64,000 nt of DNA from a virus, in IMG/VR virus record IMGVR_UViG_3300037311_000293; one strand, 5' to 3'. Below are positions 922 through 46,226 of this stretch, in pieces. Each line of letters opens with the position of its first letter. Position 1 is the first letter of the stretch. Under the pieces are notes generated by a model. That model saw only the letters and a program-made list of their open reading frames with translations. It made no database searches and was not told the origin of the DNA. The position numbers and the translations under genes are program-made.

Positions 922-1236
922 TCACTTTCTCCTGGTTGCGGTGTCGGCAGCCGTCAGGAAGTCGTCGATCACCGAGGCGTCTGGGGTCTTGAGCGCCGCC
1001 AGCTTCTGCCGTACCCGGTACTCCCTGAGATCTTCTTCGGCAGACTTGGTCTTGGTGCTCTCGATGATCGCCTTGACTTCGTCGAGGGGCGACTTCTCGC
1101 GAGCGATGCGAAGAACAGCGTTGCCCTTGTCGGGCTCGGCAGCTTTCTCTGCGGCTTTGAGCGTCTCGAGCTCGACGAGATCCTCGGTGAGGGCCTCATC
1201 GAACTCGTGCGCTGCCTTGAGGTATCGGTGCGTCAT
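922..1236 (-). CDS. Hypothetical tail-module protein
   Basis: 104 aa helical, tightly packed between sheath and tube genes. Confidence 0.65.
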   Translation of the reverse strand: MTHRYLKAAHEFDEALTEDLVELETLKAAEKAAEPDKGNAVLRIAREKSPLDEVKAIIESTKTKSAEEDLREYRVRQKLAALKTPDASVIDDFLTAADTATRRK

Positions 1237-1237
1237 C

Positions 1238-4200
1238 TCAGACCACCAGCGTGATGCGGATGTAGTTCAGGGGGTAGAGCACCCCGACCGTGATGTCGAT
1301 CTCGAGCGTGTCCGGAGCCGTCGCCGACTGCCGGATGGCGTTGATGCGGAGCTCGGAGAGCACGCCCTGACGCACGAGGAACGCCGCCAGGCCGTCGAGC
1401 GTGATGCTGATGGCGTCCTGGACGTTGGTCGAGATGTTGAAGCGGCCGATGAAGTTGCGAAGACCGACGCGAAGGAACTTCGCCGTGAAGTCGAGCGCCC
1501 GCGTGATGCTGGCCTCGCGCTTCTCGATCGTCGACATGTCCGTCGTGAGCTGGTGCCGCGTCTTGACCGGCTGGCCCACGGCCTCTTGGTACAGGACCCA
1601 GAGACCACCACCACTCATCATCTTGAGCTGGAGCTCGGAGTACCGGTCGGTGGCTCCGATGACACCGCTGAAGCCCGCGATCGATTCCTCGGTCAGGGGC
1701 TGCTGCGGCGGTACCGCGCTCATCTTGCCGGCGAGCGCGGCGGAGAGGTAGTAGCCCGGGACGGCGGTCTCGAGCCCGTCGATGGTGGCCTTGGCCGTAT
1801 CCGGGGCCGTGGTGATGACGCGACGATCGAGGTAGCCGCGCGCGATGTCGGCGTACGCCGTGGCCTCATCCGTCCGATTCGCCAGAGCGCCACCGCGAAT
1901 CTTGATGGACACCGGGCGGTCGACGACAGCGGAGGTGAACACCGGGCTTCCTCCGCCATCGAGGAAGAAGTCGTTGCTCGCGCTCAGCGGACCGTCATTG
2001 ACGGTGACGAGGGCGCCGCTGACGCTCTCGACGAGGTACTTGTTGGTGTCGCCCTCGAACTCAAGGAAGACGCCATCGCTCTCGGTGTACGTCGGGCCCG
2101 GAAGGCCCAGCGCAGCCAGAAGGCTCTGGACGTTGGCGATCCCCGTGGCCACGACATTCGTCGGGGCTCCGGAGACGTTGGCGGTCGGCGCCGACGCCAC
2201 GAGGGTGTCGGACTTCCGCGTCGGCCGGCGCGGATTCAGGATGGCGATGCGCTCGAGGCCGTTCTCGGGCTTCGAGAGCTCGTCGACGTGGATCTGAGCG
2301 GCCTGGCCGACGTCGTTGCTGTGCGTCAGCGGTGCGATGGCGTAGACGTCCTTGGACTCCAGATACTCCAGCGCCCGGATGTAGGCCGCCAAGGCGCCCT
2401 CGGGCTCGGTGTCGCTGGTGGTGTCGACGCCGCAGCCCGTGACCTCGATGCCCGGGGCGTTGAGCAGGGCGAAGTACATCCCGAGCCCCAAGGGGTTCTG
2501 GGTGTCGAGCGGCCCGAGCTCGGCCTCGAGGTCCGTGGTGTTGCCGTAGCGAGCGAGGTTGAAGTCCGTACCCAGGGGACTGACGTCACGACGAAGCGCG
2601 GTGTACGCCAGGTACGTGCTGAGCGGCCCAGCCAGGGTGGCGTCACCGTTGGTCTGTCGGAACAACTCGTACTTGATCAGAACCGTCCCGCTCTCTTCAT
2701 CGACACGGAGCTCCGAAGCCGGACGCGTTGCCGAGGCCGCGTTGTTGTCGAGGCCCTTGGCCACGATCGACCACGTCGAGCCCGTGTAGCTCAGGAGCTG
2801 CTCGGCGCTGAGACGGAGACGATTGGTCGGGGTCACTGGGATTTCGGTAATGGTTCCGATGCGGAGACCGTTGACCCAGACTTCGTCACCGACCTGCGGA
2901 GAGAACGCCTTGCCGTAGATCACAGCGGTGTTCTCGAAGGGCTCACCCGCCCCGGTCAGGCCGAGGTTCGTGAGTAGCGTGGCGTCGGACGCCGTGGTGT
3001 CGATGCGAATCGAGCTCTCACGGCCGCCGAACGTCGACGGGCTGCGGAGCACGAGCTCGTTTGCGGCGTTGAGGCTGGCAACGCCGGCCCAGAGCCCGTT
3101 GATTGCCGACACGATGTTCGCAGCAGACGCGATGGTGTTGGGCATCACGAGCTGCTGGAACTGGTCGCCGTCGATGCTCATGCGGAGCACACGGCCGTGG
3201 ACATCGGCCGCGAAGGTCAGCAGCGAGAGGTTGGCGCCGCCCTGGGCCCGCGCACGCGACGGCTTGCCATCGGCGAAGGCGCCCACGGCGAGGCCGAGGT
3301 TGCCCGAAGTCGCCGTACCGCCAGTGCGCTCGAAGGACGAGGACACGCCGGTCAGCGTCGACGTCAGAACCAGGACGTTTCCGGAGCCCAGGCTTGCCAC
3401 CGTGGCACCGAAGGCCGTGTTGATCGCCGTCACGACATCGGCAGCCGAAGCCAGGCCAGCGAAGTTGACGGTGACCGGAGCGGCGCCGTTCATCGAGAAC
3501 ACCGCCGACGTCGTGTTGAGGGCGCCGAAGGTTCCGCTGAGATCGATGTTGCCGACGAGTCGCGCGGCGGCATCGGCGAAGACGCCACCACTGAAGTTGA
3601 GGTACGGCGACAGGTTGTCGCCATCACCGTCGTCCTGCACCGAGACCGCAGAGGTCGCGCCGTCGAGGAAGGCCTCGGTGCGCAGGACTTCGCGGATGTT
3701 GCCGGCACCATCGTTCAGGAAGACCCGCACGGTGTCGTAGTCGATGACAAGATCGTCGATGTTGCCCCGGGGGTCGGGGTAATCACCACCGGCCAGCCGA
3801 AGCTGGGTGTAGTTGGTGTAGCCCGTTGCACCGGTGTTGCGGTATCCCGTGGTGACGCCGAACGCCGTGAGGACATCGGAGGCGGTACCGCTCCCGATTT
3901 CGAGGCTGGCGTTCTCGCCAGTGGCCGTGGTTTGGATCACGACACGTTGCTGCGTGCCGCTGGTCTCGACGACGGCCTCGAGGCCCGGGATGGCCTCGGT
4001 GTTGATGGCGTCGGCCACTTCCGTTGCCGTCAGGTCCGGTCCCGTGGGGAACGTCACGGTCCGCGCCGCGCCGTTGTTGACCGCGACCTCGAGGGCGTCG
4101 GTTCCGATGCCGGTGTACTCGAAGGGGCTGCTGACCCATGCGAAGGGGATGCGCGCCGGGAGGGAGACCCGGGCGTCGCTGTTCAGGCTGCCGTCGTCTT

Positions 4201-4327: not shown

Positions 4328-4336
4328 GGTGTCTCC

Positions 4337-6867: not shown

Positions 6868-8210
6868 CGGCGGCTCGCCATCTTGTACTTCTTCAGGAAC
6901 TCGATGCTCTGCATGCTACCCGGAGGCAGCGGCGCCGCAGGAGCATGGCGCGTTGCGGTACCCGTACCATCGAACGGCGACTTCTTCGGAGCCGCAGAAC
7001 GGAAGACATCGGTGGGCGCCGGGGTCGCCTTCGACGCCTTTGCCGCGATGCCTTGGCGAACGGCACTGAGACCCGATGCCGTGGTCTCGCCCTTGATGGC
7101 AGAGATCGGAACCCGCTTGGCGCTGCTCGCGGCTGCGGCTCGGCGGGCAAGATCAGCAATGCTGGCCTTCTTGCTCCGCTCTTCCTTTTGCTTTGCTCGG
7201 ATACGGCGATCACGCGCCTTGATTGCTGCTCCGGTTGCGCCAAGGGCAATCGCCCCGCCGAGCACACTACCGGCGATGCCCCGTGCATCTAGACGCGGCG
7301 ACCGAACGCGGGACTCGCCCGCGTTCTTCTCCTCGATCTTGTCGAAAGCACCGGGACGCGGGACCGGAATACCGGGTAGCGCAGCCTTGGGCCAGGTTGG
7401 TGCCGCGGCCTCACCGTTGTTGACGTGCCCGGTGTACTCGACCTCGGCCTTCTTTTTCTTGCCGCGATCTCGGAGCTTCTTTGCTGCGACGGCGCCAAGG
7501 CCTGCGGCCGCACCGATACCGACACCAGCGAGGTAGGCACCAGATCTTCCCGGTTTGCTCTTGCCCTTGACCGAGGAGACCATCTTGTCGATGACCTCCT
7601 TGGACTTCCGGGTGCTCTCAGCGGGATCCTTGATGAGGTTGCGCGCGATGTGGCGCGTAGATGCGGCCGCCCCGGCTGCCATGCGCTTCTTCCTTTGCTC
7701 AGGAGTCAGCCCTTTCTTCATGGCGGCCACGAGATTCTTGTCGGCAAACCGACCAAGCCTCTCCTGACTGGCATTCGATCCGCCCACTACCCTACGGATC
7801 ATATCCTCGCTTATCGCGCGCTTCTCACCATCTTCGGGTTGCTGACTTCGGCTCTTGTGGAGCTCGAGCACCAGAAGGGACTTCTGAAGCCGGATCTGGT
7901 CCTGCTTGGTCCAGAGATCTTGATCCTTGGGCTCCGCAAGCCGGCGCTGGATACGTTCGGCTTCCACTGCGAGATCTTGTTCAGCCAGCGCAACGGCCTT
8001 GGCGTGCAGCGGGGTCCCCTCGAACTGGCGAAGCCACCCCACGGAGGGATCGCAGTACCCAGACGCCTCCATCACCATCGAGGCGATCTTGGTGGGGTCG
8101 TCTTCGCCAAGAAGGGCCTCGAGCTCGTCGAAGTTCAAGATACGAAGGTCGTCGGCGCTGAGCTTTTCCTGGCTCATCGCATCCATGAAGTCTTGAAGGC
8201 TCATGATCAC
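6864..8210 (-). CDS. Hypothetical virion protein (two glycine zippers, basic)
   Basis: 448 aa; KLSA, KIAS, KRAI and KKAS motifs; two GxxxG/A-rich helices; ATGA-type overlaps with both neighbours. Confidence 0.65.
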   Translation of the reverse strand: MIMSLQDFMDAMSQEKLSADDLRILNFDELEALLGEDDPTKIASMVMEASGYCDPSVGWLRQFEGTPLHAKAVALAEQDLAVEAERIQRRLAEPKDQDLWTKQDQIRLQKSLLVLELHKSRSQQPEDGEKRAISEDMIRRVVGGSNASQERLGRFADKNLVAAMKKGLTPEQRKKRMAAGAAASTRHIARNLIKDPAESTRKSKEVIDKMVSSVKGKSKPGRSGAYLAGVGIGAAAGLGAVAAKKLRDRGKKKKAEVEYTGHVNNGEAAAPTWPKAALPGIPVPRPGAFDKIEEKNAGESRVRSPRLDARGIAGSVLGGAIALGATGAAIKARDRRIRAKQKEERSKKASIADLARRAAAASSAKRVPISAIKGETTASGLSAVRQGIAAKASKATPAPTDVFRSAAPKKSPFDGTGTATRHAPAAPLPPGSMQSIEFLKKYKMASRR

Positions 8211-9877
8211 TCCTTCTTGGCGATGCGCTCGAGCGCATCCGCGATTCGCTTCTGGTTCTTGTCACGCTTGTGCTGCTGGTAGGCCTTGGCCCCACCAATA
8301 GCCGCGGCCCCGACGATTGCGGCACGGCCTTTGTTGCTGCGGATCGCCGCTCGCATCTTCTCCGAGGCACCTTCGACGAGCCGGCCGCCGGCTTCGGCAC
8401 CGTATTCCGCGATACCGCGACCCATTCCGCGGCCAACTTCTGGGGCGTGTTCTGCGAGCGCCTTGCCGGCGGCGCCCCCAGCAGGCCCGGCCTGTGAGGC
8501 AGCACCACGTGCCGTAGCAGCACCAGCGGCCTCAAGGACTTGCGTGGCCTTGTCCTTGGCGCGGTCGAGGACGCTGGCCGACTTCGCCTGCTCGGCTTGC
8601 TGGGTCTGCTGTGCGGCTTCCTGTTGGGCGCGTTGGGCCTGCTCGGTTTCCTTCTTGGCCTTGGGACCGCCGGTCTGCGCTGCGGCGTTCTGTTCCTCGA
8701 CCGCAGCGGCCTCTTGTTCCTGGGCCTGTTGTTCCGGGGTCATGAGCGGCGTGGTGTCGACACCTTCTTCGGCGACTGGATCGGAGCTCACGGTGTCGGC
8801 AAGCATCTGCCGCATCTGATTGATCCTCATGCTCAGGCGCATCTTGGCGTCGGCCTCCGAAGCTGCTTGCGCCGTTGCCGAAGCCGCTTCCTGGGACGCC
8901 TGCTGGGCCTGCTGACCGAGAACCTGCGCTTGCTCCGCAGTTGCAGCGGCCTGCTGCTGCACGGCTTGGTTCTCGGCACCAAGACTTTCGATCTGCTGAC
9001 CCTGCTGCACCATCTGCTGTTGGGTCTGCTCGAGGTTCTGCTTCAGCGCTTGGTTCTCAGCAGTGGCCTGGGCGTGGCTGAGCATCAGATCTCGGGTGAG
9101 ATACTGCTCCACGGGTTCCGTACCGGCTTCGGGCACGACGACATCACCGGGTTGCTGTGTCGGGGCCTTGGGCGCCGCGAGCTTCCGCCGCGCCGCAGCG
9201 AGCTTGTCGGCCGACGACTTCTTGGTCGTCTTCTCCGGCATGTACTGCCACAGCTTGTCGAGGTGCTCCTGAGCATCGCTTTGGAACTGCTCGAGTGTGA
9301 ACTTCATCGGGTTGTCGCCCAGCATCGAATGCAGGGTCTTGAACAACACGATGGCCTGTTGCTCGCCGGCAATGAGGAAGTTCAAGGCGGCGATGGGATC
9401 TGCCGTGGGCTCTGGTGTCGGCGCAACGGGGATCGGAACACCACCGGGAATGAGAACGCCAAGGCGACGAAGGAAGTACTTCATCTCCTTGATCTCATCG
9501 CGGCCCTGGGCATCGAACAGCTCGGAGAGCTCGCCGCGCCCGAGACCGCGCATTACCTCGCCGTAGTAGGCGTAGGCACCGTGCTGGCGCATGGAGTTGC
9601 TGACGATCTGAGCAAGTTGCATCGCGACGTCTTCCGGAGACACTGCGAACTCGCCTTCGAGGTGACCCGTGGTATCGGGCTTCCCGGCTTGCGTGTGCGC
9701 CGCGGCTTCGTCGGGCGTCGGTTCCTGACCCGTGGCGACGCCTTCGGCGTGCTCGACCAGGTCGGGATCTGCCGCGAGCTTTCGAAGCGCGGTGAAGAAG
9801 AACGAGGCATCCGCGAGCTCGGGCTTGGCACCGAACTCGCTGCGCAGGCTGTCATCCAGCTCTTCGTAGTGGTTCAT
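8207..9877 (-). CDS. Virion protein with ferritin-like domain, coiled coil and C-terminal glycine zipper
   Basis: Start reassigned to ATG 9877, 1 nt after the upstream TGA; four-helix ferritin/Dps-like segment MQLAQIVSN...QEHLDKLWQY; Q/A-rich coiled coil. Confidence 0.65.
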   Translation of the reverse strand: MNHYEELDDSLRSEFGAKPELADASFFFTALRKLAADPDLVEHAEGVATGQEPTPDEAAAHTQAGKPDTTGHLEGEFAVSPEDVAMQLAQIVSNSMRQHGAYAYYGEVMRGLGRGELSELFDAQGRDEIKEMKYFLRRLGVLIPGGVPIPVAPTPEPTADPIAALNFLIAGEQQAIVLFKTLHSMLGDNPMKFTLEQFQSDAQEHLDKLWQYMPEKTTKKSSADKLAAARRKLAAPKAPTQQPGDVVVPEAGTEPVEQYLTRDLMLSHAQATAENQALKQNLEQTQQQMVQQGQQIESLGAENQAVQQQAAATAEQAQVLGQQAQQASQEAASATAQAASEADAKMRLSMRINQMRQMLADTVSSDPVAEEGVDTTPLMTPEQQAQEQEAAAVEEQNAAAQTGGPKAKKETEQAQRAQQEAAQQTQQAEQAKSASVLDRAKDKATQVLEAAGAATARGAASQAGPAGGAAGKALAEHAPEVGRGMGRGIAEYGAEAGGRLVEGASEKMRAAIRSNKGRAAIVGAAAIGGAKAYQQHKRDKNQKRIADALERIAKKE

Positions 9878-11674: not shown

Positions 11675-12778
11675 TCAGAAGCTCACGACCTGGGGGAAGA
11701 ACTGGCGATTGCCGGCGCGGTTGTTCTCGGCTCCGAGACTCTCCTCGCTGACGGGCGTGACGCGCGACAGGATCGCGTCGGCGTCGTTCGTGGTCGCATC
11801 GCCCGAGTAGAGCTCGAGCTTGCGGACGCTCGCGATGTTCACGATCGACATCCCGACGTCCTTCCAGGCCACGAACTTGATCATGTTGATGACCTTGTCG
11901 ATGTAGAACTTCACGTTGTTGAGAACGTAGAAGCGGCCGAGGAAGTCCGGGGAGGTGAAGCAGTAGACGTTGCCGGGACGGAGGATGTCCGTCTTGATCG
12001 TCTTCACGTACCGCTTGCCCACGAGCATGTTGTACTTGAAGCCGCTCACGGCGGTCTCGGACTGGAGCTTGTCGCCCTGGTCTTCGACGGTCCACTGAAG
12101 GATGTCGTCCCAGTCGACCGACGTGATCAGGATCATGTCGCTCTCGAGGCGGTTGCCGTCGAGGAGCTTGATGAGCCGGACGATGTCGGGGCGCTGGAGC
12201 GGGCGGACGATGGCGTCGTCGGTGCCGGCGACGCGGGCGAGCTCGCCCTTGACGACGCTGAACTCGACCGTGGTACCGACGCTCGACGCGTTCAGCGTGG
12301 TGACCGAGCCACCGTTGGCCTCGGCCTGGAGAGCCTGCACCGCGGCCTCGATGTGGATCATGAACTCACGATCCTGGACCTCGCCCAGATCCTTCACGGC
12401 GTTCTGCTCGATCACCTTCCCGATGGGGAAGTTGTAGGCGAGGAACTCCTGTTCCGGCTTCTGGAACATGTCCGACATCACGGTGATGAAGGGAACCTCC
12501 ACCTTCGTGCCGCGGATGAAGTTCGCGCGCGGCTCGCCACGGAACGTGACGACCATGGCGCGGCTCTTCGGCTCGAGGAACTCGATCTTCACGAGGCTGT
12601 CGTGGTTGGTCGAGACCTGGCACTGGCTGCGATCCACGTTCTCCGGAGGGAGAACCTGTTCCGCGAAGCTCGCCTCGCGGAGGCGGTCGCGGATGTAGCC
12701 GCCGAACCGAGCGGCGATCTTGGTCTTCGCCCCCGGGTCGGAGAGCTGGTTGAGAAGCATCTCCTTGCTGTTCGACAT
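11675..12778 (-). CDS. Major capsid protein (HK97-fold presumed)
   Basis: Start reassigned to ATG 12778 (RBS AGGAG), 367 aa; IRDRLREASFAEQVLPP N-arm; very strong GC3 codon bias; followed by a hairpin; downstream of protease and scaffold-like genes. Confidence 0.8.
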   Translation of the reverse strand: MSNSKEMLLNQLSDPGAKTKIAARFGGYIRDRLREASFAEQVLPPENVDRSQCQVSTNHDSLVKIEFLEPKSRAMVVTFRGEPRANFIRGTKVEVPFITVMSDMFQKPEQEFLAYNFPIGKVIEQNAVKDLGEVQDREFMIHIEAAVQALQAEANGGSVTTLNASSVGTTVEFSVVKGELARVAGTDDAIVRPLQRPDIVRLIKLLDGNRLESDMILITSVDWDDILQWTVEDQGDKLQSETAVSGFKYNMLVGKRYVKTIKTDILRPGNVYCFTSPDFLGRFYVLNNVKFYIDKVINMIKFVAWKDVGMSIVNIASVRKLELYSGDATTNDADAILSRVTPVSEESLGAENNRAGNRQFFPQVVSF

Positions 12779-13348: not shown

Positions 13349-13741
13349 TCAGTTGAAGGCCCCCTGGGTCGTCACGAAGTCTTCCAGCTCGTCGCTGGAC
13401 TGGCGCTCACCATGAGACGCACGCTTGGTGTTGGTGTTGTCGGCGTTGTCGAGGCTGCCGAGACGAGCACCGCCAGCAGCCATCTCGATGGCCTGGGCGA
13501 AGCTCGCGAGCTTCTCTTCGTCGAACTCACGAAGAGCAGCGACCTTCTCCTCGAAGTCCATCTCGGGCTCGAGTCCGCGCTGCTCCATGCGACGGGCGAG
13601 CTTCATCAGACGGAGCTCGTGCTCCGCCGCCGATGCGCGCTTCATCAAGCTCTGATTGCTGCTGGCGAGCTTGCGCATGTGCTGAGCCGCGGTCTGCATG
13701 ATCGCGGGAACCTCACTCGCCACCTTCTTCATGTTGGTCAT
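13349..13741 (-). CDS. Scaffold-like/internal head protein
   Basis: 130 aa coiled coil with about 7 K-x-A motifs (KVAS, KLAS, KRAS, KLAR, KVAA). Confidence 0.65.
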   Translation of the reverse strand: MTNMKKVASEVPAIMQTAAQHMRKLASSNQSLMKRASAAEHELRLMKLARRMEQRGLEPEMDFEEKVAALREFDEEKLASFAQAIEMAAGGARLGSLDNADNTNTKRASHGERQSSDELEDFVTTQGAFN

Positions 13742-13767: not shown

Positions 13768-14907
13768 TCAGCCGAGCAGCGTGGCGGGGTCGACCCCGAG
13801 CTTGGACTTGATCGACGTCAGAATCGACGCCGCCTTCTGGCGCTCTTCGACAGGCGCATCTTCGTCGTTGTAGACGTCGAAGGCGCGCTTGATGTAGGCG
13901 CGTGCGGCAGCGGACGTCTTCTCCTCGTCCTTGTCGTCCTTCTTGTCCTTCTTGGCCTCTGCCTTCTCGGTCTTCTCAGGCTTCGACTCCTCGTGCGAGG
14001 AAGCGCGCTTGCGAATCGCCGAGCTGAGCTTCTGGCCTTCGGTCGTGAGCGTGTGGGCGCCGACCGCCGGGTCCTTCTTCGGGGGCTCCGAGAAGTGCTT
14101 GGTGGTCTCTCGCGTCGTGGCGTCGCGGGCCTGAGAGCGCGTCATCGAGATCAGGCCGGCGTTGTCCGGGATGTGCGAGCTGGGCCCAGGCTCGGTGTCG
14201 AGCTTGAAGCTGTCGCTGTGCCCCGGCATCGAGGGCGGCGGGCTCGACGGATCCTGAGCCGCCTTGACCTGCTGCATGATGGCTTCGGCTTGATCGATCA
14301 GCCCGAGGCTCATCAGCGTCTCGGCCTGCGCCATCTTCGCCCGAAGAAGACGATTGGCCGCCGTCTTGTCCTTCGTCCAGCCCGCCGTCTTGCCGGGCTC
14401 GTTCTTCGGGGCACCGCTGTCGTCGCCGGGGGACGTGAACTCTTCCTTGTTCGTGTCCTGGCCGGCGGGATGGAGCTTGCCGCCGCTGAAGCGGTCCGTG
14501 ACCTTCGACGTCGCCTTGGGCGAGGCCGTGGCCGTGGTGATGAAGCCGGATTCCGACACCGCAGGACCCGGGGCATCGTGGACGGTGCCCTCGGCGATCT
14601 TGGTGACGATGCTGCTGCCGGCCTCGAGCGCTTCGGCGAGCTTGAAGGCGAAGTCGACGTCCGCCAGCGCGGATTCCTTCGTCTCTTCCTTCTCTTCCTT
14701 CTTCTCCTTGCGCTTCTCGCGGCTCTTCTCGTCGTCACCCTCGAACGGGGTGTCTTCGGAGGCGCGCTTGGTGATGGGCAGAAGGTCGCTGAGGAAGTCG
14801 CCGGGATCCCCGGCGGGCTCCGCGTCGCGGGCCGACGCCAACTTCAGGCCGCTCTCCGCCTTGGAGAGGGCGCTGCTGACGATATCGCTGAGGGTCAAAC
14901 CGGGCAT
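13768..14907 (-). CDS. Internal head/scaffold protein, low complexity
   Basis: 379 aa, charged and disordered, more than 10 K-x-A/S motifs, strong GC3 bias. Confidence 0.7.
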   Translation of the reverse strand: MPGLTLSDIVSSALSKAESGLKLASARDAEPAGDPGDFLSDLLPITKRASEDTPFEGDDEKSREKRKEKKEEKEETKESALADVDFAFKLAEALEAGSSIVTKIAEGTVHDAPGPAVSESGFITTATASPKATSKVTDRFSGGKLHPAGQDTNKEEFTSPGDDSGAPKNEPGKTAGWTKDKTAANRLLRAKMAQAETLMSLGLIDQAEAIMQQVKAAQDPSSPPPSMPGHSDSFKLDTEPGPSSHIPDNAGLISMTRSQARDATTRETTKHFSEPPKKDPAVGAHTLTTEGQKLSSAIRKRASSHEESKPEKTEKAEAKKDKKDDKDEEKTSAAARAYIKRAFDVYNDEDAPVEERQKAASILTSIKSKLGVDPATLLG

Positions 14908-15136: not shown

Positions 15137-16204
15137 TCAACCCTCCAGGTAGCCGTTCTCCTGAAGGAGCTCCTCGGCGCGGGCGTACACCGCGGCGTAG
15201 TAGTCGTCGCCCGCGAACTCAGAGAACTCCGAGAACTCGGTCTGTTCGGCTGCGAGCTTGGTGGGCTCGACGATCCCGTTCTCGACGAGGATGTGGTTCG
15301 CGAACGCGACGGCATCTTGCTCGAAGGCCTCGTCGAACGACTGCTTCTTCCGCATCGCTGCCGCTCCGGCGCCCGCACCAGCGGTGGCCAGGGCCGCGCC
15401 ACCCAGCGCCGCGCGCCCCGTGCGCCGCGACTTCGCCGCATCCTCGAGGGCGTTACCCCCAGCAGCCATGCGCTTCTTGGCGCCTTCGGCTCCCCCACGC
15501 AGCTTGTAGCCGACGCGGGTGCTCACGGCGTGCTCCTTCTCCCGCACGGCACCCGCTGCGCCGCTTGCCGCGCTGCGTGCCTTGCTGGCGGCACCGCGGA
15601 CCTTGTCGGCCGCGCCGCTTGCCGCCCCACGGACCTTGCCGATCGCGCCACGAACGGCGTCCGTGGCGGCCGCCATGCGGGACGCTTCCTTCGTCGCTTC
15701 GTCCTCGCCGTCGCCGCCCTCGAGCTCGGCGAGCTTCTCGACGAAGCCCTCCGCCATCGCGCGACCGATCTCTCGGGCATCCGCGATCTTCTCCTCGGCG
15801 GCGATCTTCTGCTCGAAGTACGAGGGGTCGCTCATGTTCTGGGCGAGCTCCGCGAAGAGCTGGTGGTAGTCCTCACGGCTGAGCTCGTTGAGGTCGATGC
15901 CCTCGGCCTGGGCGATCTTGCCCAGCTCGACGGCCACATCGGCGTTGGTGATCTCGTTCGGGATCTGCGTCTCGTCGCTCATGGTCTGTTCCTTCTGGGG
16001 CTCCTGATGGGCGCTTGCGGTCTTCTCCGGAGGGAGCAACTCCGAAAGTAGACTCGCCACGTCTTCGTCGCTGAGGTCGTCGAGCTCGATGCCCTCTTGT
16101 TCAGCGATCTTCTGAAGGACGTGGCTCGCGTTCGCAAGATCGATGTCCAGGTCCTCGGAAGAGTCTTCCGTGTCCTGCTCGAAGATGTCGGTGACGCGTT
16201 CCAT
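15137..16204 (-). CDS. Internal head protein (acidic, K-x-A motifs, glycine zipper)
   Basis: 355 aa; KIAE, KTAS, KIAQ, KIAA, KIAD, KLAE, KEAS, KLAA; AALGGAALATAGAGAGAAA. Confidence 0.7.
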   Translation of the reverse strand: MERVTDIFEQDTEDSSEDLDIDLANASHVLQKIAEQEGIELDDLSDEDVASLLSELLPPEKTASAHQEPQKEQTMSDETQIPNEITNADVAVELGKIAQAEGIDLNELSREDYHQLFAELAQNMSDPSYFEQKIAAEEKIADAREIGRAMAEGFVEKLAELEGGDGEDEATKEASRMAAATDAVRGAIGKVRGAASGAADKVRGAASKARSAASGAAGAVREKEHAVSTRVGYKLRGGAEGAKKRMAAGGNALEDAAKSRRTGRAALGGAALATAGAGAGAAAMRKKQSFDEAFEQDAVAFANHILVENGIVEPTKLAAEQTEFSEFSEFAGDDYYAAVYARAEELLQENGYLEG

Positions 16205-16252: not shown

Positions 16253-17965
16253 CTAGAAGGACTTCAGTGCACCCCGCGCCGCCGAAACGAGAGAGGTCGC
16301 AGCCTGACGAAGACCGCCGGCATTGTCCACAGCCATCGCTGCACGAAGAACCGCTCCGATCGTTGCCATCGAAGTGAAAGTCGGATTCTCGGCGACGAAC
16401 TGTGCCATGGCCCCTAGCTGCTCACCCTCTTCGTTCCTTCGACGAAGGTGCGATGAAACCAAATGTATCACGGGCGCTAGACCGAGGAGAAGCGCACTCA
16501 GGCCGATCCCTTTCAGGTCACGCGGAACCGAGAGCAGCGAAGCCGCCTTGGGCATCAGATTTTCAGCGTTCTCGAGTACGCTGATCCTATAGCCATTGTA
16601 CGCCGCCGCGATCTTCTCCAAACGGATGTAGTTGGGTTCCGAAGATCCGAGTTTGGGCTCGTCGGACGACAGCCGGGCATTCAGATACGGCGCATACGCC
16701 GAACGCTCCGGCACCAGCGGTACAAGGGCGCTTGCCAACTTGGCGTCGAACAACACGGGGTCGACGGCATAGCTGTCGTCGATGCCGCCTGTGGTATCGA
16801 ACACCGCATTCATCGAAGCCAGTGCTTGCTTCTCGGCAGCAGGAAGAACGATGGCCTGGAACTCCCGTGGAGTCGGGATGATGCCCAGCCCAGCAAGTAC
16901 GGTCAGCAGCGTGCGGGGCTCGGTACCTGCATCGACGATCGCGGACAGCGTCTCAGAAGCATCCGGAGCTGACTTCGCGTCGACCTCAACGGCCTGCGCG
17001 ATGCCATCTGGGATCTCCTTTTCCATCGACGACAGCTTCATCGACGACATCAAGGTATCGAGGATCTTGTCGATTCGACGTGTACCAGGAGCCGGTGCGG
17101 GGAGCTCGCTACCCGCCATGAACCACATGACGCGGGCGGTACGGTCGGCGCCGACCCAGACGAAGCTGATGTCAAAGAACCGCGGGAAGTCGTTGTAGAC
17201 GAACACCTTGCGGCCGTCGGGATAGATCTTCCCCGGCTCATTCCTCATGTGCTCGCAGTAGTCGACGCGCGTTACTGCGAGACCGCGGATCTTGGTGTGA
17301 AACCGATGGTAGGCCAGGATGGCAACACCGGGAGTGCGGTGTTTCTTGAGGTCGAAGAGCTTCCAAGCCTTCCGAATCGCATCCCAATCGGTGCAGATCG
17401 AGCACAAGTCGAAGGGCACTCGGCAACCCATCGAGACGTCGACGCGTTCACCCGCGGCGATTCGACTCAGGATGGATGTGTGGCCCTTCTTGGCGGCCTC
17501 TTCGTTGAACACGCGCTCGACGAGCTCGATGCGCTTCATCGTGGGGTTCAGCGCGACGTAGATGACGTCGCCGAAGCCGAGCTGCTGAGGATCAGTGTTC
17601 TTGTGATGGGCGTAGACCGTCGCGCCGTAGTACGTAGGGTAGCCGTAAGGCCAGTCCTTCCCCTGCATTTTGTCGGTCTCGTAATCCTGCCCAAAGGATT
17701 CTGGGGCGTTGAGGAGACCGTTGAAGTCGAGCGGCGCGTTGTACCCGTACCAGTCTCGGTTCGAGTTCGATCCGTAGAACTCGGAGTACCCCATCGCGTT
17801 TACGAGGGTGTAGGTGTACCGGGGATCAGGTTTCAACGAGTCGATGAAGCGCTGGACGGAGGGCACCAGGGGACTCGCCGTCTTCACCTGTTCACCAGGC
17901 GTGATGACGCGTACCAGGGGCTCTCCGTCAGGCTCACCTTGGAGATATGCGCGCTTGATCAGCAT
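16253..17965 (-). CDS. Prohead maturation protease (HK97/herpes-type serine protease)
   Basis: Start reassigned to ATG 17965 (overlaps upstream stop), 570 aa; VYAHH (His), DVSMGC (Ser), FFDISFVWVGADRTARV; CSIC zinc insertion. Confidence 0.75.
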   Translation of the reverse strand: MLIKRAYLQGEPDGEPLVRVITPGEQVKTASPLVPSVQRFIDSLKPDPRYTYTLVNAMGYSEFYGSNSNRDWYGYNAPLDFNGLLNAPESFGQDYETDKMQGKDWPYGYPTYYGATVYAHHKNTDPQQLGFGDVIYVALNPTMKRIELVERVFNEEAAKKGHTSILSRIAAGERVDVSMGCRVPFDLCSICTDWDAIRKAWKLFDLKKHRTPGVAILAYHRFHTKIRGLAVTRVDYCEHMRNEPGKIYPDGRKVFVYNDFPRFFDISFVWVGADRTARVMWFMAGSELPAPAPGTRRIDKILDTLMSSMKLSSMEKEIPDGIAQAVEVDAKSAPDASETLSAIVDAGTEPRTLLTVLAGLGIIPTPREFQAIVLPAAEKQALASMNAVFDTTGGIDDSYAVDPVLFDAKLASALVPLVPERSAYAPYLNARLSSDEPKLGSSEPNYIRLEKIAAAYNGYRISVLENAENLMPKAASLLSVPRDLKGIGLSALLLGLAPVIHLVSSHLRRRNEEGEQLGAMAQFVAENPTFTSMATIGAVLRAAMAVDNAGGLRQAATSLVSAARGALKSF

Positions 17966-23158: not shown

Positions 23159-23207
23159 CAAAAGAATGGGGGACGGGCCGTAGGGCCTAGTCTCCCGCTC
23201 TTTTGCT
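23159..23207. terminator. Bidirectional terminator between convergent genes
   Basis: CAAAAGA...GGGGAC GGGCC-GTAG-GGCCT AGTCTCCC...TCTTTTG imperfect hairpin. Confidence 0.6.
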
Positions 23208-28603: not shown

Positions 28604-28614
28604 GTTGATCACCT

Positions 28615-40253: not shown

Positions 40254-40285
40254 AAGAAAGCCCCCGAAAGGGGGCTGCCTTCTTC
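40253..40285. terminator. Bidirectional terminator
   Basis: AGCCCCC-GAAA-GGGGGCT GNRA hairpin between convergent stops. Confidence 0.8.
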
Positions 40286-42185
40286 AGCTTTGCCCCGCCC
40301 GCCGGAGAGGTAGCTGCTCCGGCAGCGGTCGCATATCCACTGCACCTTGCTGGCCTTGTTGAGGCGGCGGCTGCGCTCCTGGCCCCGTTGCCTGTGGCAT
40401 CTCGGGAGGCACCATCTGTTGCTGCACCATGCCGGCCATTTCGGGGCTGGCGTCACGGAGCTGAGCAAAAGCGATCTCTTGTTCGTCAGGCGGAAGAGTT
40501 TTGATCTTCTGCGCATACGCCGCGGCAAGGGCGTCGAGAGGCACGCCGGCAGGCTGAGACAGCGATTGTTGCGATTCTGCAAAGGGATCGTTCTTCGGCT
40601 GCTGCTCCCGTACCTGCGCCGTAGCAATCGCTGCCTGGGCCTTGGCCTGGTACTTCGCCGCAACGAGTTGGGCCTCACCCATGATCTGCGCGTTCTGCAA
40701 CTGCTGCCCGCGAAGTGTCTCGGCCTTCAGCTTCGACTCCGCCGCCATGAGCTCAAGTTCGTCCTCGACCTTCAAGTCGGCGTAGCTCAGCAACGTGGCG
40801 TCAGAGATCTTGTTCATGCTGTTGAGCTGCGCCATGAACGCCTGGCGTTGTAGATCATCAGCCATCCGGAACGGCTTGAAGCGGCCCTCGGGTACCGGAA
40901 GGTTCAGGTAGGCGCCCAGACGCTTCATTACCCAGTCGAGCAGCCTGTGATGGGCGTGCACGTTGCTGAGGAAGAAGTTCTCAAGCATGCGCATCGAAAC
41001 CGACGAGCCCGCGTAGGTGCCGCGACCGAACACGAGGTCCACGGGGAAGCCCATACCAGCGACCATGACCTCGAGGGCCTGTTGGATCTCCGGCATCAGC
41101 AGAAGGCTGCGGCCGTTCTCACCGATGGTTTGGTGGCCCAGCGGGAACGGAAGGATGCCGTAGTACGCGGGATCTGCGCGTTGACGCGCGAGCTCTCGGC
41201 GGATGTGGTCGCGCCAGTTCGACAGATCAACAGTCGTGAAGGGGTCGGCGCCGGCAGTGGCGGGCTGCGGGAACAGGAAGATCTGAGGCACCAAGTGAGT
41301 CAGAAGGACTGCTTCTTGCGCCTTGCGCATGACCTGGACGTAGAACGCTTCCTTCAGCACAGGCATCAGAAGCGGGATGCCCCATCCGCGCGACATCGTA
41401 GACAGGCTCGGACGTCGAAGATGGAAGACCTCGGAACGATCGAAGACGAGACTGCGCTTCGTACGAACGGCCTCCAGGAAAATCTCGGGCGTCGTCGCTA
41501 CGAGATCTTTGCGCCCCATCATGACTTGCGAACGGAAGTCCGGAGACAGGTCGAGGCCGTAATCCATACGGCCAGTGGCTTCGTTGTAGAAGATGTGGAC
41601 GTTCTCCGGGTTCCATCGGATCAGATTGATCTCGGAGTACTTGGGGTAGTAGTCGTCTCGGCTTTCCGCCCAATGGGCCTGTCCGCACTTCGTGCATTCC
41701 AGCCAGAAACGGTGATTCGTGTAGCGCCACGACGGGCGGCTCTGCAACGCGTCGTGGACCTCGCCGCAGTTCGAGCACTTCAGCTTCTTCCGGAACGGGA
41801 AGCTGACAGACACGAAGGCGTTGCCGTACACGAAGTAGTCGAGATTGATCTCGAACTGTTGAACGCGATAGTTCAGCACCCCGTTCATCAGGGTGTCCCA
41901 CTTCTTGACGACCCCGTTGTCCTTGTGCTGGAGCACCAAGTCGGTGACCGGATACTCCGCAGCCCGAGTCACCACGCTGTTGATGATCCCATGCGTCAGG
42001 TAATAGAACCGACAGAACCCGAACAGCGCCTTGATCGAGGGCGGCGTGTACGTGCTGGCCTGGTCGAAGAACGGATTGGAGAAGGGCTGGTACTTGCGCC
42101 CCAAGATCTGCCCGCGGTCGGCATTGCCGCCCAGCGCAGAACCCCGAGCTCCACCGAAGGCACTACCGCCTCCAAAGAACGTCAT
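40284..42185 (-). CDS. Portal protein
   Basis: 633 aa; LDYFVYGNAFV, RWNPENVHI, VFHLRR...GWGIPLL portal signatures; Q-rich C-terminus. Confidence 0.85.
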   Translation of the reverse strand: MTFFGGGSAFGGARGSALGGNADRGQILGRKYQPFSNPFFDQASTYTPPSIKALFGFCRFYYLTHGIINSVVTRAAEYPVTDLVLQHKDNGVVKKWDTLMNGVLNYRVQQFEINLDYFVYGNAFVSVSFPFRKKLKCSNCGEVHDALQSRPSWRYTNHRFWLECTKCGQAHWAESRDDYYPKYSEINLIRWNPENVHIFYNEATGRMDYGLDLSPDFRSQVMMGRKDLVATTPEIFLEAVRTKRSLVFDRSEVFHLRRPSLSTMSRGWGIPLLMPVLKEAFYVQVMRKAQEAVLLTHLVPQIFLFPQPATAGADPFTTVDLSNWRDHIRRELARQRADPAYYGILPFPLGHQTIGENGRSLLLMPEIQQALEVMVAGMGFPVDLVFGRGTYAGSSVSMRMLENFFLSNVHAHHRLLDWVMKRLGAYLNLPVPEGRFKPFRMADDLQRQAFMAQLNSMNKISDATLLSYADLKVEDELELMAAESKLKAETLRGQQLQNAQIMGEAQLVAAKYQAKAQAAIATAQVREQQPKNDPFAESQQSLSQPAGVPLDALAAAYAQKIKTLPPDEQEIAFAQLRDASPEMAGMVQQQMVPPEMPQATGPGAQPPPQQGQQGAVDMRPLPEQLPLRRAGQS

Positions 42186-44019: not shown

Positions 44020-44022
44020 GGA

Positions 44023-44709: not shown

Positions 44710-44726
44710 GTTCTCTTCCTCCTAGA

Positions 44727-46226
44727 TCAGGTTGCCGCAGCAAGGCGGGACAGTACCACCTTTTGCGGATCCGGCATCGACTTGAAGATTCCGACGGGGT
44801 CCTTTGCGAAGCTGCTGGCGAAGCCATCGCCGAACAACTCATCGAGTTTCGCGGTGCGCTCTGAGAGCGACTTGAGCTGCATGCCGCTGACGTAGTCGTT
44901 CCCCGCGGACCACGAGTAGGTCTCGCACTCGTCGGCCGCATGCTTCGTTCCGTAGACCGCGGCGTATGGGTCGAGGAACCCGACACCCGGCCGGTTGTAG
45001 CTACCGGACGCACCGGTCTCCACATCGGCTCCCATGATCATGTTGACCATGACCATGGGATCGATCTCCGCCTTCTTCTCGAGCAAGAGCTCGTACACCT
45101 CTTCGTGTCCGGTGCCCATGAAAGCCGTGATACGAGCGTGAAGCTGGGCTTCGACGTTCTCCCCGTACTCGGTGCCGGCGTAGTTCATGACGGCGCCAGA
45201 GAGCTTGACTCCGAGCTCATCGGCGCGCTGAGCCACGGACACCGCGTATGCGCGGCGTTCTTCGAGCGGGAACGAGTGCAGATGATCGTCGAAGTACGCC
45301 GCGGCCTGCTTGACCTGTGCGGTGGTGTCGATGGGATAGCGCTCGAGGTGGGGAAGTGCGTAGTGAACCGCGCTTGCTTGCTTCTTCTTGACGTGACCAT
45401 CGAACAGAGTGAGATCACCGCAGTGAGCCCACTCCGCAGACGCCAGGAGTGCAGAAGTCTTCTGGGGGAGGTCGAGGCTCTTACTGGGCGAAGAGCGGAC
45501 AGGATGATTGCGCAGAGTACCCTGCGGCATGATCTCGGTACCCGTGAGGTCTGCCTTCTTCGCCATCACGGGGTCGATCTGGTCCCTCTTCTCGAGCTGC
45601 TTGTCCAGCTTCTTGTGCGTCGAGTCGAGCTTGGAGAACAGATCGAACAACCCGAAAATGTGGCCGGACTCCGGACCATCCCCGCGTTGCATCGCGTTGT
45701 CTTGTTCCTTCGTGAGCTCGACTGTGCGACCAGAGGCCGTCTTGGTTCCTGAAGCCTGCGCGGCGCGGAACTCGTCCATGCGCTCATGGGCCTTCTCGCT
45801 TCCGCTTCTTGCGCGATGCGCCATGTCCATGGCACCGAAGCCGACGGTGAGAGCCTTTCCGATCATCGCCTTCTTGATCAGATCTGTCGGAGGCTGAAGG
45901 TCATACCACGAACACCCCACCACAAGGTTCGACGCAACCTTTGCCTGGACGTCATCGGGCAGTAGGTGCCCACACTCCAGGAAGTAGAGGATGGAGATCG
46001 TGGTGTGCTCGGGGTCGTGCATCGCGTACTTGCGAAGCACGTTCCCATGGTTCGTGGCCACCAGCCCGAACAGGCGGTCGGGAAGCTCCTCGAGCTCGTC
46101 GGTCGTCAACAAACGCGACGCCGCCAGCTTGGTCGGTAGCTTCTGCTTGAGGGCAGCCAGCTTGTTGCGGAGGACGAGACCACGAGGGTCGTCGTAGATG
46201 TCGAGCACGATCCCGGCGATTCGCAT
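44727..46226 (-). CDS. Virion protein with two DUF6582-like (F/Y-A-L-P...R-Y-P) modules
   Basis: Start ATG 46226; ELEELPDRLFGL...RKYAMHD and HYALPHLERYPIDTTAQVKQAAAYF; many K-x-A/S motifs. Confidence 0.6.
   Translation of the reverse strand: MRIAGIVLDIYDDPRGLVLRNKLAALKQKLPTKLAASRLLTTDELEELPDRLFGLVATNHGNVLRKYAMHDPEHTTISILYFLECGHLLPDDVQAKVASNLVVGCSWYDLQPPTDLIKKAMIGKALTVGFGAMDMAHRARSGSEKAHERMDEFRAAQASGTKTASGRTVELTKEQDNAMQRGDGPESGHIFGLFDLFSKLDSTHKKLDKQLEKRDQIDPVMAKKADLTGTEIMPQGTLRNHPVRSSPSKSLDLPQKTSALLASAEWAHCGDLTLFDGHVKKKQASAVHYALPHLERYPIDTTAQVKQAAAYFDDHLHSFPLEERRAYAVSVAQRADELGVKLSGAVMNYAGTEYGENVEAQLHARITAFMGTGHEEVYELLLEKKAEIDPMVMVNMIMGADVETGASGSYNRPGVGFLDPYAAVYGTKHAADECETYSWSAGNDYVSGMQLKSLSERTAKLDELFGDGFASSFAKDPVGIFKSMPDPQKVVLSRLAAAT

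What the first reader, a model, noticed from the sequence alone, without database searches (positions are those of the whole stretch)
922..46226. K-x-A/S motif enriched in head-module proteins: candidate prohead-protease cleavage code
Seen: K-[LTIRVEQ]-[AS], usually followed by A/S/E, recurs many times in head-region proteins: about 7 in the 130-aa ORF at 13349, more than 10 in 13768, 8 in 15137, about 10 in 26579 and 7 in 44727. It also occurs in the capsid N-terminus (KTKIAARF) and in the protease itself (VKTASP, MKLSS, AKLAS, EKIAA). It appears sparse in tube, sheath, GyrB and replication proteins. Known: T4 gp21 cuts at I/L-x-E and phiKZ gp175 at S/A/G-x-E, and both process capsid and internal proteins at many sites. 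Inference: this phage uses a Lys-at-P3, small-residue-at-P1 specificity to shred scaffolds and release many internal peptides. The motif would then mark which hypothetical proteins enter the capsid, including distant genes at 26579 and 42182-46226.
Basis: partly seen in the sequence, partly recalled or inferred. Interest (0 to 1): 0.8.

Follow-up and report, generated by a model that had tools for sequence, protein, structure and literature searches.

The report
Lys-x-Ala head-protease cleavage code
The head-assembly proteins of this uncultured 177-kb phage and its many relatives carry far more copies of the short signal Lys-x-Ala-(Ser/Ala) than chance allows; these most likely mark where the phage's own T4/herpesvirus-type head protease cuts, a rule unlike the cut-after-Glu rule of studied phages, but no cut has been measured.

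Summary
The loose K-x-[AS] form is only weakly enriched.

Seven proteins carry 37 K-x-A-[SA] sites, against 5.7 expected from local shuffles and 7 for the reversed motif. They are 13349, 13768, 15137, the protease 16253, 18928, 26579 and 44727. The other 211 genome proteins sit at chance (56 vs 58.6). Codon use at the sites is diverse.

The enrichment recurs in syntenic orthologues across an uncultured clade (GC 45-68%). It also recurs in cultured Salmonella phage Arash and Vibrio phage D69, where unbiased scans again rank K.AS and EK.A first.

ORF 16253 has the T4 gp21/assemblin fold. Its relatives have no site in the catalytic domain. Conserved sites lie in the disordered N-tail and the interdomain linker. 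The capsid protein keeps one site about 20 residues from its N-terminus in all relatives checked.

A prohead-protease cleavage code is the best reading (about 0.7). The scissile bond is unknown. Genes 42182, 43081 and 44023 are not enriched.

This scan has already noted the same code on other phage genomes. I found no published report of it.

The parts
16253..17965 (-). Prohead protease of 570 aa. N-terminal catalytic domain (about residues 32-290, gp21/assemblin fold), a disordered linker, and a helical C-terminal domain (320-570).
   Evidence: VIA-align top hit of 48,161 chains is T4 gp21 5jbl (Z 8.3, rmsd 2.8, 131 aligned); VZV, HCMV and KSHV proteases give Z 7.0, 5.4 and 5.1. Foldseek against PDB lists the same class, weakly. 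BFVD gives 31 hits at E<=1e-3, many named prohead protease. The AF2 model has pLDDT 75. No Pfam or PHROG hit.
17426..17440 (-). DVSMG motif holding invariant Ser178, the candidate catalytic serine. Invariant His121 lies at 17603-17605.
   Evidence: Invariant in 31 homologues. In intein-bearing homologues the intein sits exactly after ...DVSMG. Coordinates checked.
17873..17884 (-). Protease N-terminal site K28-T-A-S, a predicted autoprocessing site.
   Evidence: A site at this column in 28 of 31 homologues and K28 conserved in 90% or more. Lies in the pLDDT<50 segment 18-31.
17027..17038 (-). Protease interdomain site K310-L-S-S, a predicted release site between the catalytic and C-terminal domains.
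   Evidence: A site at this column in 26 of 31 homologues. Lies in the disordered segment 291-320, just before the invariant MEKEIP.
15137..16204 (-). Acidic, Ala-rich scaffold or core-like protein (355 aa) with 6 K-x-A-[SAGE] sites.
   Evidence: K[LIVTRM]A[SAE] 5 vs 0.4 expected, z 7.8. The site at residue 32 is kept in 12 of 13 orthologues.
13768..14907 (-). Lys/Glu-rich scaffold or core-like protein (379 aa) with 8 sites plus 3 K-x-S variants.
   Evidence: 6 vs 0.4 expected, z 8.4. The site at residue 22 is kept in 9 of 9 orthologues.
13349..13741 (-). Small scaffold-like protein (130 aa) with 6 sites. If all were cut, the fragments would be 8-32 residues long.
   Evidence: 6 vs 0.1 expected, z 15.5. 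Alignment of 26 orthologues. Fragment sizes.
11675..12778 (-). Major capsid protein (367 aa) with a single site, K20-I-A-A at 12710-12721. Predicted removal of an N-terminal propeptide of about 22 residues.
   Evidence: phrog_2522 major head protein. The site is kept as K-I-A-A or E-K-[IMLV]-A-E in all 80 relatives and as K-E-A-G at the equivalent place in Arash and D69.
18928..19740 (-). Conserved 270-aa protein two genes upstream of the protease, with 5 sites. It is the family of Arash gp220 and D69 268. Predicted substrate.
   Evidence: z 5-6. Enriched in nearly every relative. The site at residue 24 is kept in 32 of 35. Arash gp220 z 8.1.
26579..28612 (-). 677-aa multidomain protein of unknown fold with 9 sites plus KLSA. 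Predicted substrate, possibly capsid-internal.
   Evidence: z 7-9. All 43 homologues carry 6-12 sites, each z>=3.9. At hot columns K and A are 0.8-1.0 conserved against flanks of 0.2-0.6. AF2 pLDDT 79. No fold match.
44727..46226 (-). 499-aa protein four genes upstream of the portal, with 8 sites. Predicted substrate.
   Evidence: z 7-8. Orthologues in three other complete genomes keep z 4.3-8.3.
8207..9877 (-). 556-aa protein with a weak ferritin-like domain and clustered KLAA sites in the linker after it. A weak, possible substrate.
   Evidence: PF00210 E 7e-4, below cut-off. 3 vs 0.5 expected. Sites lie in the variable linker and are only partly conserved.
40284..42185 (-). Portal protein. 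Context only: not motif-enriched.
   Evidence: BLASTP to phage G gp14 portal, E 8e-15. phrog_2833 weak. 0 sharp sites.

Best explanation
K-x-A-[S/A/E/G] is the recognition and cleavage signal of the phage's own prohead protease, ORF 16253-17965. The full footprint runs from about -2 to +4 and reads L-E-K-[L/I/V/T]-A-[S/A/E]-A. The enzyme is a serine protease of the T4 gp21 / herpesvirus assemblin fold.

Proposed steps inside the assembled procapsid (inferred):
1. The enzyme frees its catalytic domain by cutting its disordered N-tail (K28) and its interdomain linker (K310).
2. It removes about 22 residues from the capsid protein N-terminus.
3. It trims short N-terminal propeptides from 18928, 26579 and 44727.
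4. It chops the three scaffold/core proteins 15137, 13768 and 13349 into peptides of about 10-100 residues that can leave the shell before DNA is packaged.

Shown here: the motif's statistical reality, its conservation, the protease fold, and where the sites lie.

Inferred: that the sites are cut, by this enzyme, and where the bond lies. I favour Ala|Ser, as in assemblin (about 55%), over a cut after the fourth residue, as in gp21-type (L/I)-x-E| (about 30%).
For: 1. Enrichment well beyond composition: 37 vs 5.7 by local shuffles, reversed motif 7. Only these proteins stand out among 221 genes. K/A-rich proteins elsewhere, such as the 2077-aa protein, 5549 and 18668, are not enriched.
2. Selection acts at protein level: all four Ala codons and both Ser codon families are used at the sites. 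The enrichment persists over GC 45-68%.
3. Independent replication: in 73 dereplicated scaffold-region proteins from 38 distant loci an unbiased pattern scan ranks EK.A (148/24.9), K.AS (107/15.4) and KLA first. The same holds in cultured phages Arash and D69.
4. Site-level purifying selection: K and A are 0.8-1.0 conserved within flanks of 0.2-0.6, while x varies. New sites appear in lineage-specific insertions.
5. The enzyme: gp21/assemblin fold, invariant S178 and H121, and an intein at DVSMG.
6. Self-processing geometry: 0 of 195 sites lie in the catalytic domain of 31 homologues. The hot sites lie in the two disordered segments that flank it. In diverse representatives 26 of 201 sites fall in the core, against 83 expected.
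7. A conserved capsid N-terminal site is present in all 80 relatives and in Arash and D69.
8. Positive control: T4 gp22 and gp21 show the known [LI]-x-E enrichment (z 5.0 and 3.1), while the non-substrates gp19 and gp20 do not.
9. The Pro/Gly-depleted footprint of about 7 residues matches a protease subsite span.
10. The model fits known systems. SPN3US gp245 removes 20-254-residue N-propeptides, cuts propeptides at several sites and clips itself (PMC10052503). pUL26 has a protease-linker-scaffold layout with cuts after Ala (PMC4498786).
Against: - No proteomic or biochemical evidence of cleavage exists. The only virion MS on a cultured relative (Arash) reports no peptides and lists 116 'structural' proteins.
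- In the 26579 model six sites lie in helices and one in a strand of confidently folded domains, where a protease would not easily reach them.
- The L(-2)/L(+1) spacing suggests that the motif often sits in an amphipathic helix.
- The N-proximal position of the first site is not significant within this genome alone (p 0.12).
- Homologous sites are not independent counts.
- The protease is linked to gp21 by fold only. hhalign, Pfam and PHROGs find nothing.
Confidence: 0.7

Rival explanations
1. The motif is a docking or assembly motif that is not cut. On this view a short amphipathic helix (L-E-K-L-A-S-A) lets core and internal proteins bind one another, the inner capsid surface or the protease's C-terminal domain. 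It would act as a capsid-targeting or co-assembly code rather than a cut site.
For: Many sites lie in predicted helices of folded domains. Hydrophobic residues are preferred at -2 and +1 and Ala at +2 and +4. The invariant K268 site of 26579 lies in a beta-strand.
Against: - One copy would be enough for targeting, yet these proteins carry 6-12.
- The best-conserved protease sites lie in disordered linkers, not helices.
- Complete absence from the catalytic domain is what self-protection from cleavage predicts.
- A single site at the capsid N-arm fits a propeptide boundary.
- I know of no precedent for such a multi-copy docking motif. T4 as a control shows that cleavage codes give this pattern.
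Confidence: 0.15
2. The sites are cut, but by a different protease: a host enzyme or a second phage enzyme. ORF 16253 would then have another specificity.
For: The enzyme-substrate link is inferred only from co-occurrence. Staphylococcal phage 80alpha capsid and scaffold are trimmed by a host protease (my own knowledge, not checked here).
Against: - The motif travels with this protease family across hosts as different as Salmonella, Vibrio and uncultured environmental bacteria.
- Phage G's protease is itself enriched.
- The protease's own flanks carry the best-conserved sites.
- No second protease was seen in the head module.
Confidence: 0.07
3. The enrichment is a by-product of Lys/Ala-rich, helical, low-complexity composition, or of internal sequence duplication, and has no function.
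For: Scaffold-like proteins are rich in K, A and E. The loose K-x-[AS] motif is only about 1.1-fold enriched overall.
Against: - Global and local shuffles, and the reversed motif, all fail to reproduce it.
- Other K/A-rich proteins are flat.
- The logo returns to background beyond -2..+4, so no duplicated domains are involved.
- The pattern is conserved in non-alignable orthologues and over a wide GC range.
Confidence: 0.02

Closest known systems
Bacteriophage T4 prohead protease gp21 (PDB 5jbl; MEROPS S77) with its (L/I)-x-Glu| sites in gp22, gp67, gp68, gp23, gp24 and the internal proteins
   Same: - Best structural match of the catalytic domain (Z 8.3).
- The gene sits in the head module ahead of the scaffold and capsid genes.
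- Many sites in scaffold/core proteins, a propeptide on the capsid protein, and sites in the protease itself.
- The same statistical footprint in my T4 control.
   Different: - No detectable sequence similarity.
- The invariant residues are Lys and Ala, not Glu. Glu is only 11-19% at +3.
- The enzyme is 570 aa with a large C-terminal helical domain, against 212 aa for gp21.
- The capsid propeptide is about 22 residues rather than 65 (the T4 figure is from my own knowledge).
Giant-phage prohead proteases phiKZ gp175, 201phi2-1 and SPN3US gp245 (S/A/G-x-Glu| or A-x-E|)
   Same: The protease processes many head proteins encoded at scattered loci. N-terminal propeptides range from 20 to over 200 residues, long propeptides are cut at several sites, and the protease cuts itself (PMC10052503).
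   Different: Those enzymes keep Glu at P1, whereas here the signal is K-x-A-[S/A]. In those phages cleavage was measured by mass spectrometry. Here it is only predicted.
Herpesvirus assemblin and its protease-scaffold precursor (HSV/PrV pUL26, HCMV pUL80a; MEROPS S21)
   Same: - Same fold class (VZV Z 7.0, HCMV 5.4, KSHV 5.1).
- Cuts after Ala with Ser or Thr next (PrV YLQA|T and VQA|S; PMC4498786), matching the invariant Ala followed by Ser/Ala here.
- An N-terminal protease joined by a linker carrying a site to a C-terminal assembly domain.
- Invariant His residues (H121, H209, H220) leave a Ser-His-His triad possible.
   Different: - Assemblin prefers a hydrophobic residue, not Lys, two places before the Ala.
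- It has only 2-4 sites per precursor rather than dozens across many proteins.
- The scissile bond here is unknown.
- Triad geometry was not examined.

Membership tests
Capsid-maturation serine proteases of the assemblin/gp21 fold (MEROPS clan SH: S21, S77, S78, S80) | Characteristic protease fold | tested here: met
   VIA-align: 5jbl Z 8.3, rmsd 2.8, 131 of 165 residues; 1vzv Z 7.0. Foldseek against PDB tops out with HCMV, HSV and VZV proteases and gp21, at weak E-values. BFVD gives 31 hits at E<=1e-3, many named prohead protease or COG3740.
Capsid-maturation serine proteases of the assemblin/gp21 fold (MEROPS clan SH: S21, S77, S78, S80) | Catalytic Ser and His, with a third His, Asp or Glu, in the active site | tested here: inconclusive
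   S178, H121, H209 and H220 are invariant in 31 homologues, and an intein is inserted at DVSMG|C. Their spatial arrangement, and their equivalence to the gp21 or assemblin catalytic residues, could not be examined with these tools.
Capsid-maturation serine proteases of the assemblin/gp21 fold (MEROPS clan SH: S21, S77, S78, S80) | Gene in the head module, upstream of the scaffold and major capsid genes | tested here: met
   The order is protease, three scaffold-like ORFs, 12826, then the capsid gene. The same order holds in 28 relatives and in phage G: portal, gp19, decoration, capsid.
Capsid-maturation serine proteases of the assemblin/gp21 fold (MEROPS clan SH: S21, S77, S78, S80) | Sequence membership of a curated family model (Pfam Peptidase_S77/S78/S80/S21 or PHROG prohead protease) | tested here: not met
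   No Pfam hit at E<=0.01 and no PHROG hit at E<=0.001. hhalign against T4 gp21 finds nothing. It is a separate sequence family with 2,627 cluster representatives.
Capsid-maturation serine proteases of the assemblin/gp21 fold (MEROPS clan SH: S21, S77, S78, S80) | Proteolytic activity and autoprocessing | not testable with these tools
   Needs expression of wild type and the S178A mutant, or virion N-terminomics.
gp21-type cleavage rule (T4 L/I-x-E|, phiKZ S/A/G-x-E|, SPN3US A-x-E|) | Invariant Glu immediately before the scissile bond | tested here: not met
   The invariant residues are Lys and Ala. Glu is 11-19% at +3 and 17-30% at -1. Many conserved sites, such as VKTAS and RKLAS, have no adjacent Glu.
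gp21-type cleavage rule (T4 L/I-x-E|, phiKZ S/A/G-x-E|, SPN3US A-x-E|) | Many sites in scaffold/core proteins, plus propeptide sites in the capsid protein, internal proteins and the protease itself | tested here: met
   The site distribution fits, and the T4 control shows the analogous pattern. This is a test of sequence pattern only, not of cleavage.
Assemblin cleavage rule ((V/L/I)-x-Ala|Ser) | Ala before and Ser/Ala after the scissile bond | tested here: inconclusive
   Ala is obligatory and Ser is the most enriched next residue (z 6.5; 4.5-fold). Pro at +4 is tolerated, as in VKTAS-P. The actual bond is unknown.
Assemblin cleavage rule ((V/L/I)-x-Ala|Ser) | Hydrophobic residue two places before the Ala | tested here: not met
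   That position is the invariant Lys.

The most novel reading that the evidence does not exclude
A very large, unnamed family of prohead proteases (2,627 cluster representatives at 50% identity) has an assemblin-like specificity: it cuts after Ala in Lys-x-Ala|Ser/Ala, instead of the Glu-P1 rule of every characterised gp21-type phage enzyme. It also has an assemblin-like layout of protease, release site and assembly domain. That would make it a functional bridge between phage and herpesvirus capsid maturation. It would also mean that the processed head proteome of hundreds of uncultured large phages, and of cultured Arash and the Vibrio D69 group, can be read directly from sequence.
Probability: 0.45. 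Interest if true: 0.75.

Novelty: new variant of a known kind. Interest (0 to 1): 0.6.

Why it matters
If the code is real, it gives three things.

1. A sequence-only way to list the processed head and internal proteins of a large, almost wholly unannotated phage lineage. The candidates here are 18928, 26579, 44727 and the three scaffold-like ORFs.
2. A new specificity class for gp21/assemblin-fold proteases. Its Ala-Ser preference recalls herpesvirus assemblin and bears on how the two maturation systems are related.
3. A testable link to host immunity. CBASS sensors detect T4 through a bait loop carrying the gp21 I/L-x-E motif (PMC12991175). Phages with a Lys-x-Ala protease would escape such baits or need different ones.

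Cultured relatives (Salmonella phage Arash, Vibrio phage D69) carry the same signal, so the prediction can be tested at the bench now.

Tried and rejected
- Megablast of the head module against 50,697 phage records: no match.
- PHROGs and Pfam on the motif-rich proteins and the protease: nothing, apart from sub-threshold hits such as Talin, RecQ-HTH and Ferritin.
- HMM profile of the protease family against PDB sequences: only a chance FN3 hit.
- hhalign of the family against T4 gp21: nothing.
- Protein atlas for 26579: no usable hit, and its own model has pLDDT 0.39.
- VIA-align and BFVD for my 26579 model: best Z 6.6, which is noise, and one uncharacterised homologue. Its function stays unknown.
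- Arash virion MS paper and supplement: coverage table only, no peptides, so no cleavage information.
- Hua et al. 2017 on jumbo-phage capsids: no cleavage sequence for phage G.
- Four literature searches for a K-x-A rule: none found.
- The idea that first sites are significantly N-proximal within this genome: not significant (p 0.12). Only their evolutionary conservation is notable.
- A DNA-word explanation: rejected because codons at the sites are diverse.
- Glu at -1 as the P1 residue of a gp21-like E|K cut: rejected because most conserved sites lack it.
- My 'longest ORF' picker chose spurious frames for L082, L085, L087 and L089. Those rows were ignored.

Full report
**Setting.** The window is bases 17517-81516 (minus strand) of a single 177,453-bp virus contig of about 60% GC. 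Spurious ORFs abound at this GC, so I built a self-trained codon-usage gene model: 61 genes in the window and 221 in the genome, tightly packed.

Landmarks, all on the minus strand unless stated:
- tail sheath, 1238-4327
- major capsid protein, 11675-12778 (phrog_2522)
- terminase large subunit, 23207-25045
- GyrB-like topoisomerase, 20487-22409 (+ strand)
- portal, 40284-42185 (phage G gp14, E 8e-15)

Reading with transcription, the head module runs 18928, 18668, 17959, 16253 (protease), 15137, 14915, 13768, 13349, 12826, then the capsid gene.

Against 2000 within-protein shuffles the loose K-x-[AS] motif is barely enriched over the window (207 vs 182). A sharper form is strongly enriched in a discrete set of proteins. 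For K-[LIVTRM]-A-[SAE] the counts are:

| Protein | Observed | Expected | z |
|---|---|---|---|
| 13349 | 6 | 0.1 | 15.5 |
| 13768 | 6 | 0.4 | 8.4 |
| 15137 | 5 | 0.4 | 7.8 |
| 16253 | 3 | 0.2 | 5.8 |
| 18928 | 3 | 0.2 | 6.0 |
| 26579 | 6 | 0.4 | 9.3 |
| 44727 | 4 | 0.3 | 7.0 |

I chose that refined pattern after seeing the instances, so I ran unbiased controls.
- A profile of residues around every Lys in the seven proteins gives Ala at +2 (z 9.1), Ser at +3 (z 6.5), Leu at +1 and Glu at -1. The same profile for the other proteins gives nothing.
- K-x-A-[SA] occurs 37 times against 5.7 after shuffling within 12-residue blocks (maximum 14 in 1000).
- The reversed motif occurs 7 times.
- R-x-A-[SA] and E-x-A-[SA] are flat.

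Genome-wide, only these window proteins stand out, and the other 211 proteins have 56 sites against 58.6 expected. Other K/A-rich proteins (the 2077-aa protein, 5549, 18668, 6864) are not enriched. The sites use all four Ala codons (14/19/7/7) and both Ser codon families, so the signal is not a DNA word. The anchored logo is L(-2) E(-1) K [L/I/T/V] A [S/A/E] A(+4) and returns to background beyond that, which excludes duplicated domains. Pro and Gly are depleted from -2 to +4 (Pro ratio 0.06 at +1, 0.31 at +4), a footprint of about seven residues.

**Conservation.**
- *Loci.* The capsid protein retrieved 80 IMG/VR loci, 57-86% identical, from contigs of 160-194 kb.
- *Synteny.* In 28 loci of 16 kb or more, spanning GC 45-68%, the enrichment recurs at the same syntenic positions: the 18928 orthologue, the protease, and the ORFs between protease and capsid gene. 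This holds even where those ORFs no longer match by BLAST. Sheath, terminase, GyrB and the capsid body are empty.
- *Unbiased scan.* A scan of all gapped tripeptide patterns in 73 dereplicated scaffold-region proteins from 38 distant loci ranks EK.A (148 vs 24.9), K.AS (107 vs 15.4), KLA and KIA at the top.
- *Capsid protein.* It keeps one site about 20 residues from its N-terminus in all 80 relatives: K-I-A-A, or E-K-[IMLV]-A-E.
- *Distal genes.* Orthologues of 26579 and 44727 in other complete genomes keep z 4-12.
- *Site-level selection.* In 43 homologues of 26579 (28-81% identical) every member has 6-12 sites (z>=3.9). At the hot columns K and A are 0.8-1.0 conserved against flanks of 0.2-0.6, while the x position varies. 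This is the signature of a short linear motif under selection.
- *N-proximal sites.* These are especially conserved: 13768 residue 22 in 9/9, 15137 residue 32 in 12/13, 18928 residue 24 in 32/35. Within this one genome, however, the N-proximal placement is not significant (p 0.12).
- *Cultured phages.* Salmonella phage Arash and Vibrio phage D69 (capsid about 24% and protease about 30% identical) give K.AS and EK.A as the top patterns again, and carry K-E-A-G at the equivalent capsid position. In Bacillus phage G only the protease gp19 (z 5.2) and the portal N-terminus are enriched.

**The enzyme.** ORF 16253-17965 has no Pfam or PHROG match. It belongs to a family with more than 900 word-indexed homologues and 2,627 cluster representatives at 50% identity.

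An AlphaFold model built from 31 homologues (pLDDT 75) shows three parts:
- a folded domain at about residues 32-290
- disordered segments at 18-31 and 291-320
- a helical C-terminal domain

Against 48,161 PDB representatives the best match is T4 gp21 (5jbl: Z 8.3, rmsd 2.8 Å, 131 residues), followed by the VZV, HCMV and KSHV proteases (Z 7.0, 5.4, 5.1). Foldseek independently lists the same class at weak E-values. In the viral model library, 31 hits at E<=1e-3 include many annotated prohead proteases, phage G gp19, and proteins of phiRSL1 and PaBG.

S178 (in DVSMG), H121, H209 and H220 are invariant. In intein-bearing homologues the intein sits exactly after DVSMG, which is typical of catalytic motifs. 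I therefore accept 16253 as a prohead protease by fold and context. It is not a member of any curated sequence family.

**Link between enzyme and motif.** The two best-conserved sites of the protease family are K28 (28 of 31) and K310 (26 of 31). They lie in the two disordered segments that flank the catalytic domain. None of the 195 sites in the 31 homologues lies inside that domain, which makes up 45% of the length. In diverse representatives 26 of 201 sites fall in the core against 83 expected, and 35 of 44 have a site N-terminal of it. A self-releasing, self-protected protease should look like this. The arrangement also mirrors herpesvirus pUL26, which has a protease, a release site, then a scaffold domain, with cuts after Ala.

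As a positive control, the same statistics on T4 recover the experimentally known code. [LI]-x-E is enriched in gp22 (16 vs 5.8, z 5.0) and gp21 (z 3.1) but not in gp19 or gp20.

**Mechanism proposed, and limits.** The most likely reading (about 0.7) is a cleavage code of this protease. On that reading the enzyme releases itself, removes about 22 residues from the capsid protein, trims other head proteins, and fragments the three scaffold-like proteins into peptides of roughly 10-100 residues. None of this cleavage has been observed.

The bond is unknown. An invariant Ala followed by Ser, together with tolerated Pro at +4, favours Ala|Ser as in assemblin. A cut after the fourth residue would instead parallel (L/I)-x-E|.

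There are also points against cleavage at every site. Seven of the ten 26579 sites lie in helices or a strand of a confidently folded model, so not all sites need be cut. A non-cleaved docking motif remains a rival at about 0.15.

Neither 26579 nor 44727 could be assigned a fold or a place in the virion.

**Novelty.** Characterised gp21-type enzymes (T4, phiKZ, 201phi2-1, SPN3US) all cut after Glu. I found no paper describing a Lys-x-Ala rule. This scan has, however, already reported the same code on many other phage genomes, so within the scan it is a recurring finding. I rate it a new variant of a known kind of system, predicted and not demonstrated.

Noticed in passing
window 16253-17965; homologues P0007, P0010, P0023 and others; loci L008, L023, L041, L046, L061: Many homologues of the protease carry one to three inteins (Hint/LAGLIDADG domains; proteins of 900-1700 aa). 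One insertion point is exactly after DVSMG, two residues past the putative catalytic Ser. Other breaks lie near profile positions 104 and 229.
   Followed up: partly
window 8207-9877 (-): A 556-aa protein in the head-neck region has a sub-threshold ferritin-like domain (PF00210, E 7e-4, residues 87-209), followed by a variable linker with KLAA sites. The protease model also hit phage proteins annotated Dps or ferritin-domain in BFVD, and SynFtn in PDB. A ferritin-like helical bundle may therefore recur in head proteins of this lineage.
   Followed up: partly
window 29757-35990 (-): The C-terminal third of the 2077-aa ORF matches Arash gp216 and D69 264, annotated RNA polymerase beta/beta' (24% identity, E 2e-37). 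It has no motif enrichment (1 vs 2.9 expected). RNA polymerase subunits were the most abundant proteins in the Arash virion MS.
   Followed up: partly
window 20487-22409 (+) and 19812-20324 (+): A GyrB-type topoisomerase gene and a small ORF lie on the opposite strand between the terminase and the head module, in this phage and its closest relatives (L003, L005, L007, L008). In more distant relatives the terminase lies directly upstream of the 18928 orthologue.
   Followed up: no
window 10867-11601 (-): A gene with an endonuclease VII-like C-terminus (phrog_3281, E 8e-5) sits immediately downstream of the capsid gene. It is found in only 7 of 80 related loci, which suggests a mobile or accessory nuclease.
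   Followed up: no
window 922-1236 (-): The small K/A/E-rich protein next to the sheath gene carries KAAE-KAAE, KSAE and KLAA. This gives a modest K-x-A-[SAE] excess (4 vs 0.6) but only one strict site.
   Followed up: no
window 12826-13302 (-): The 158-aa ORF just upstream of the capsid gene occupies the position of the capsid decoration gene gp26 in phage G. It is conserved in 78 of 80 loci. Its two sites in this phage are absent from its orthologues, so it is probably not a substrate.
   Followed up: partly
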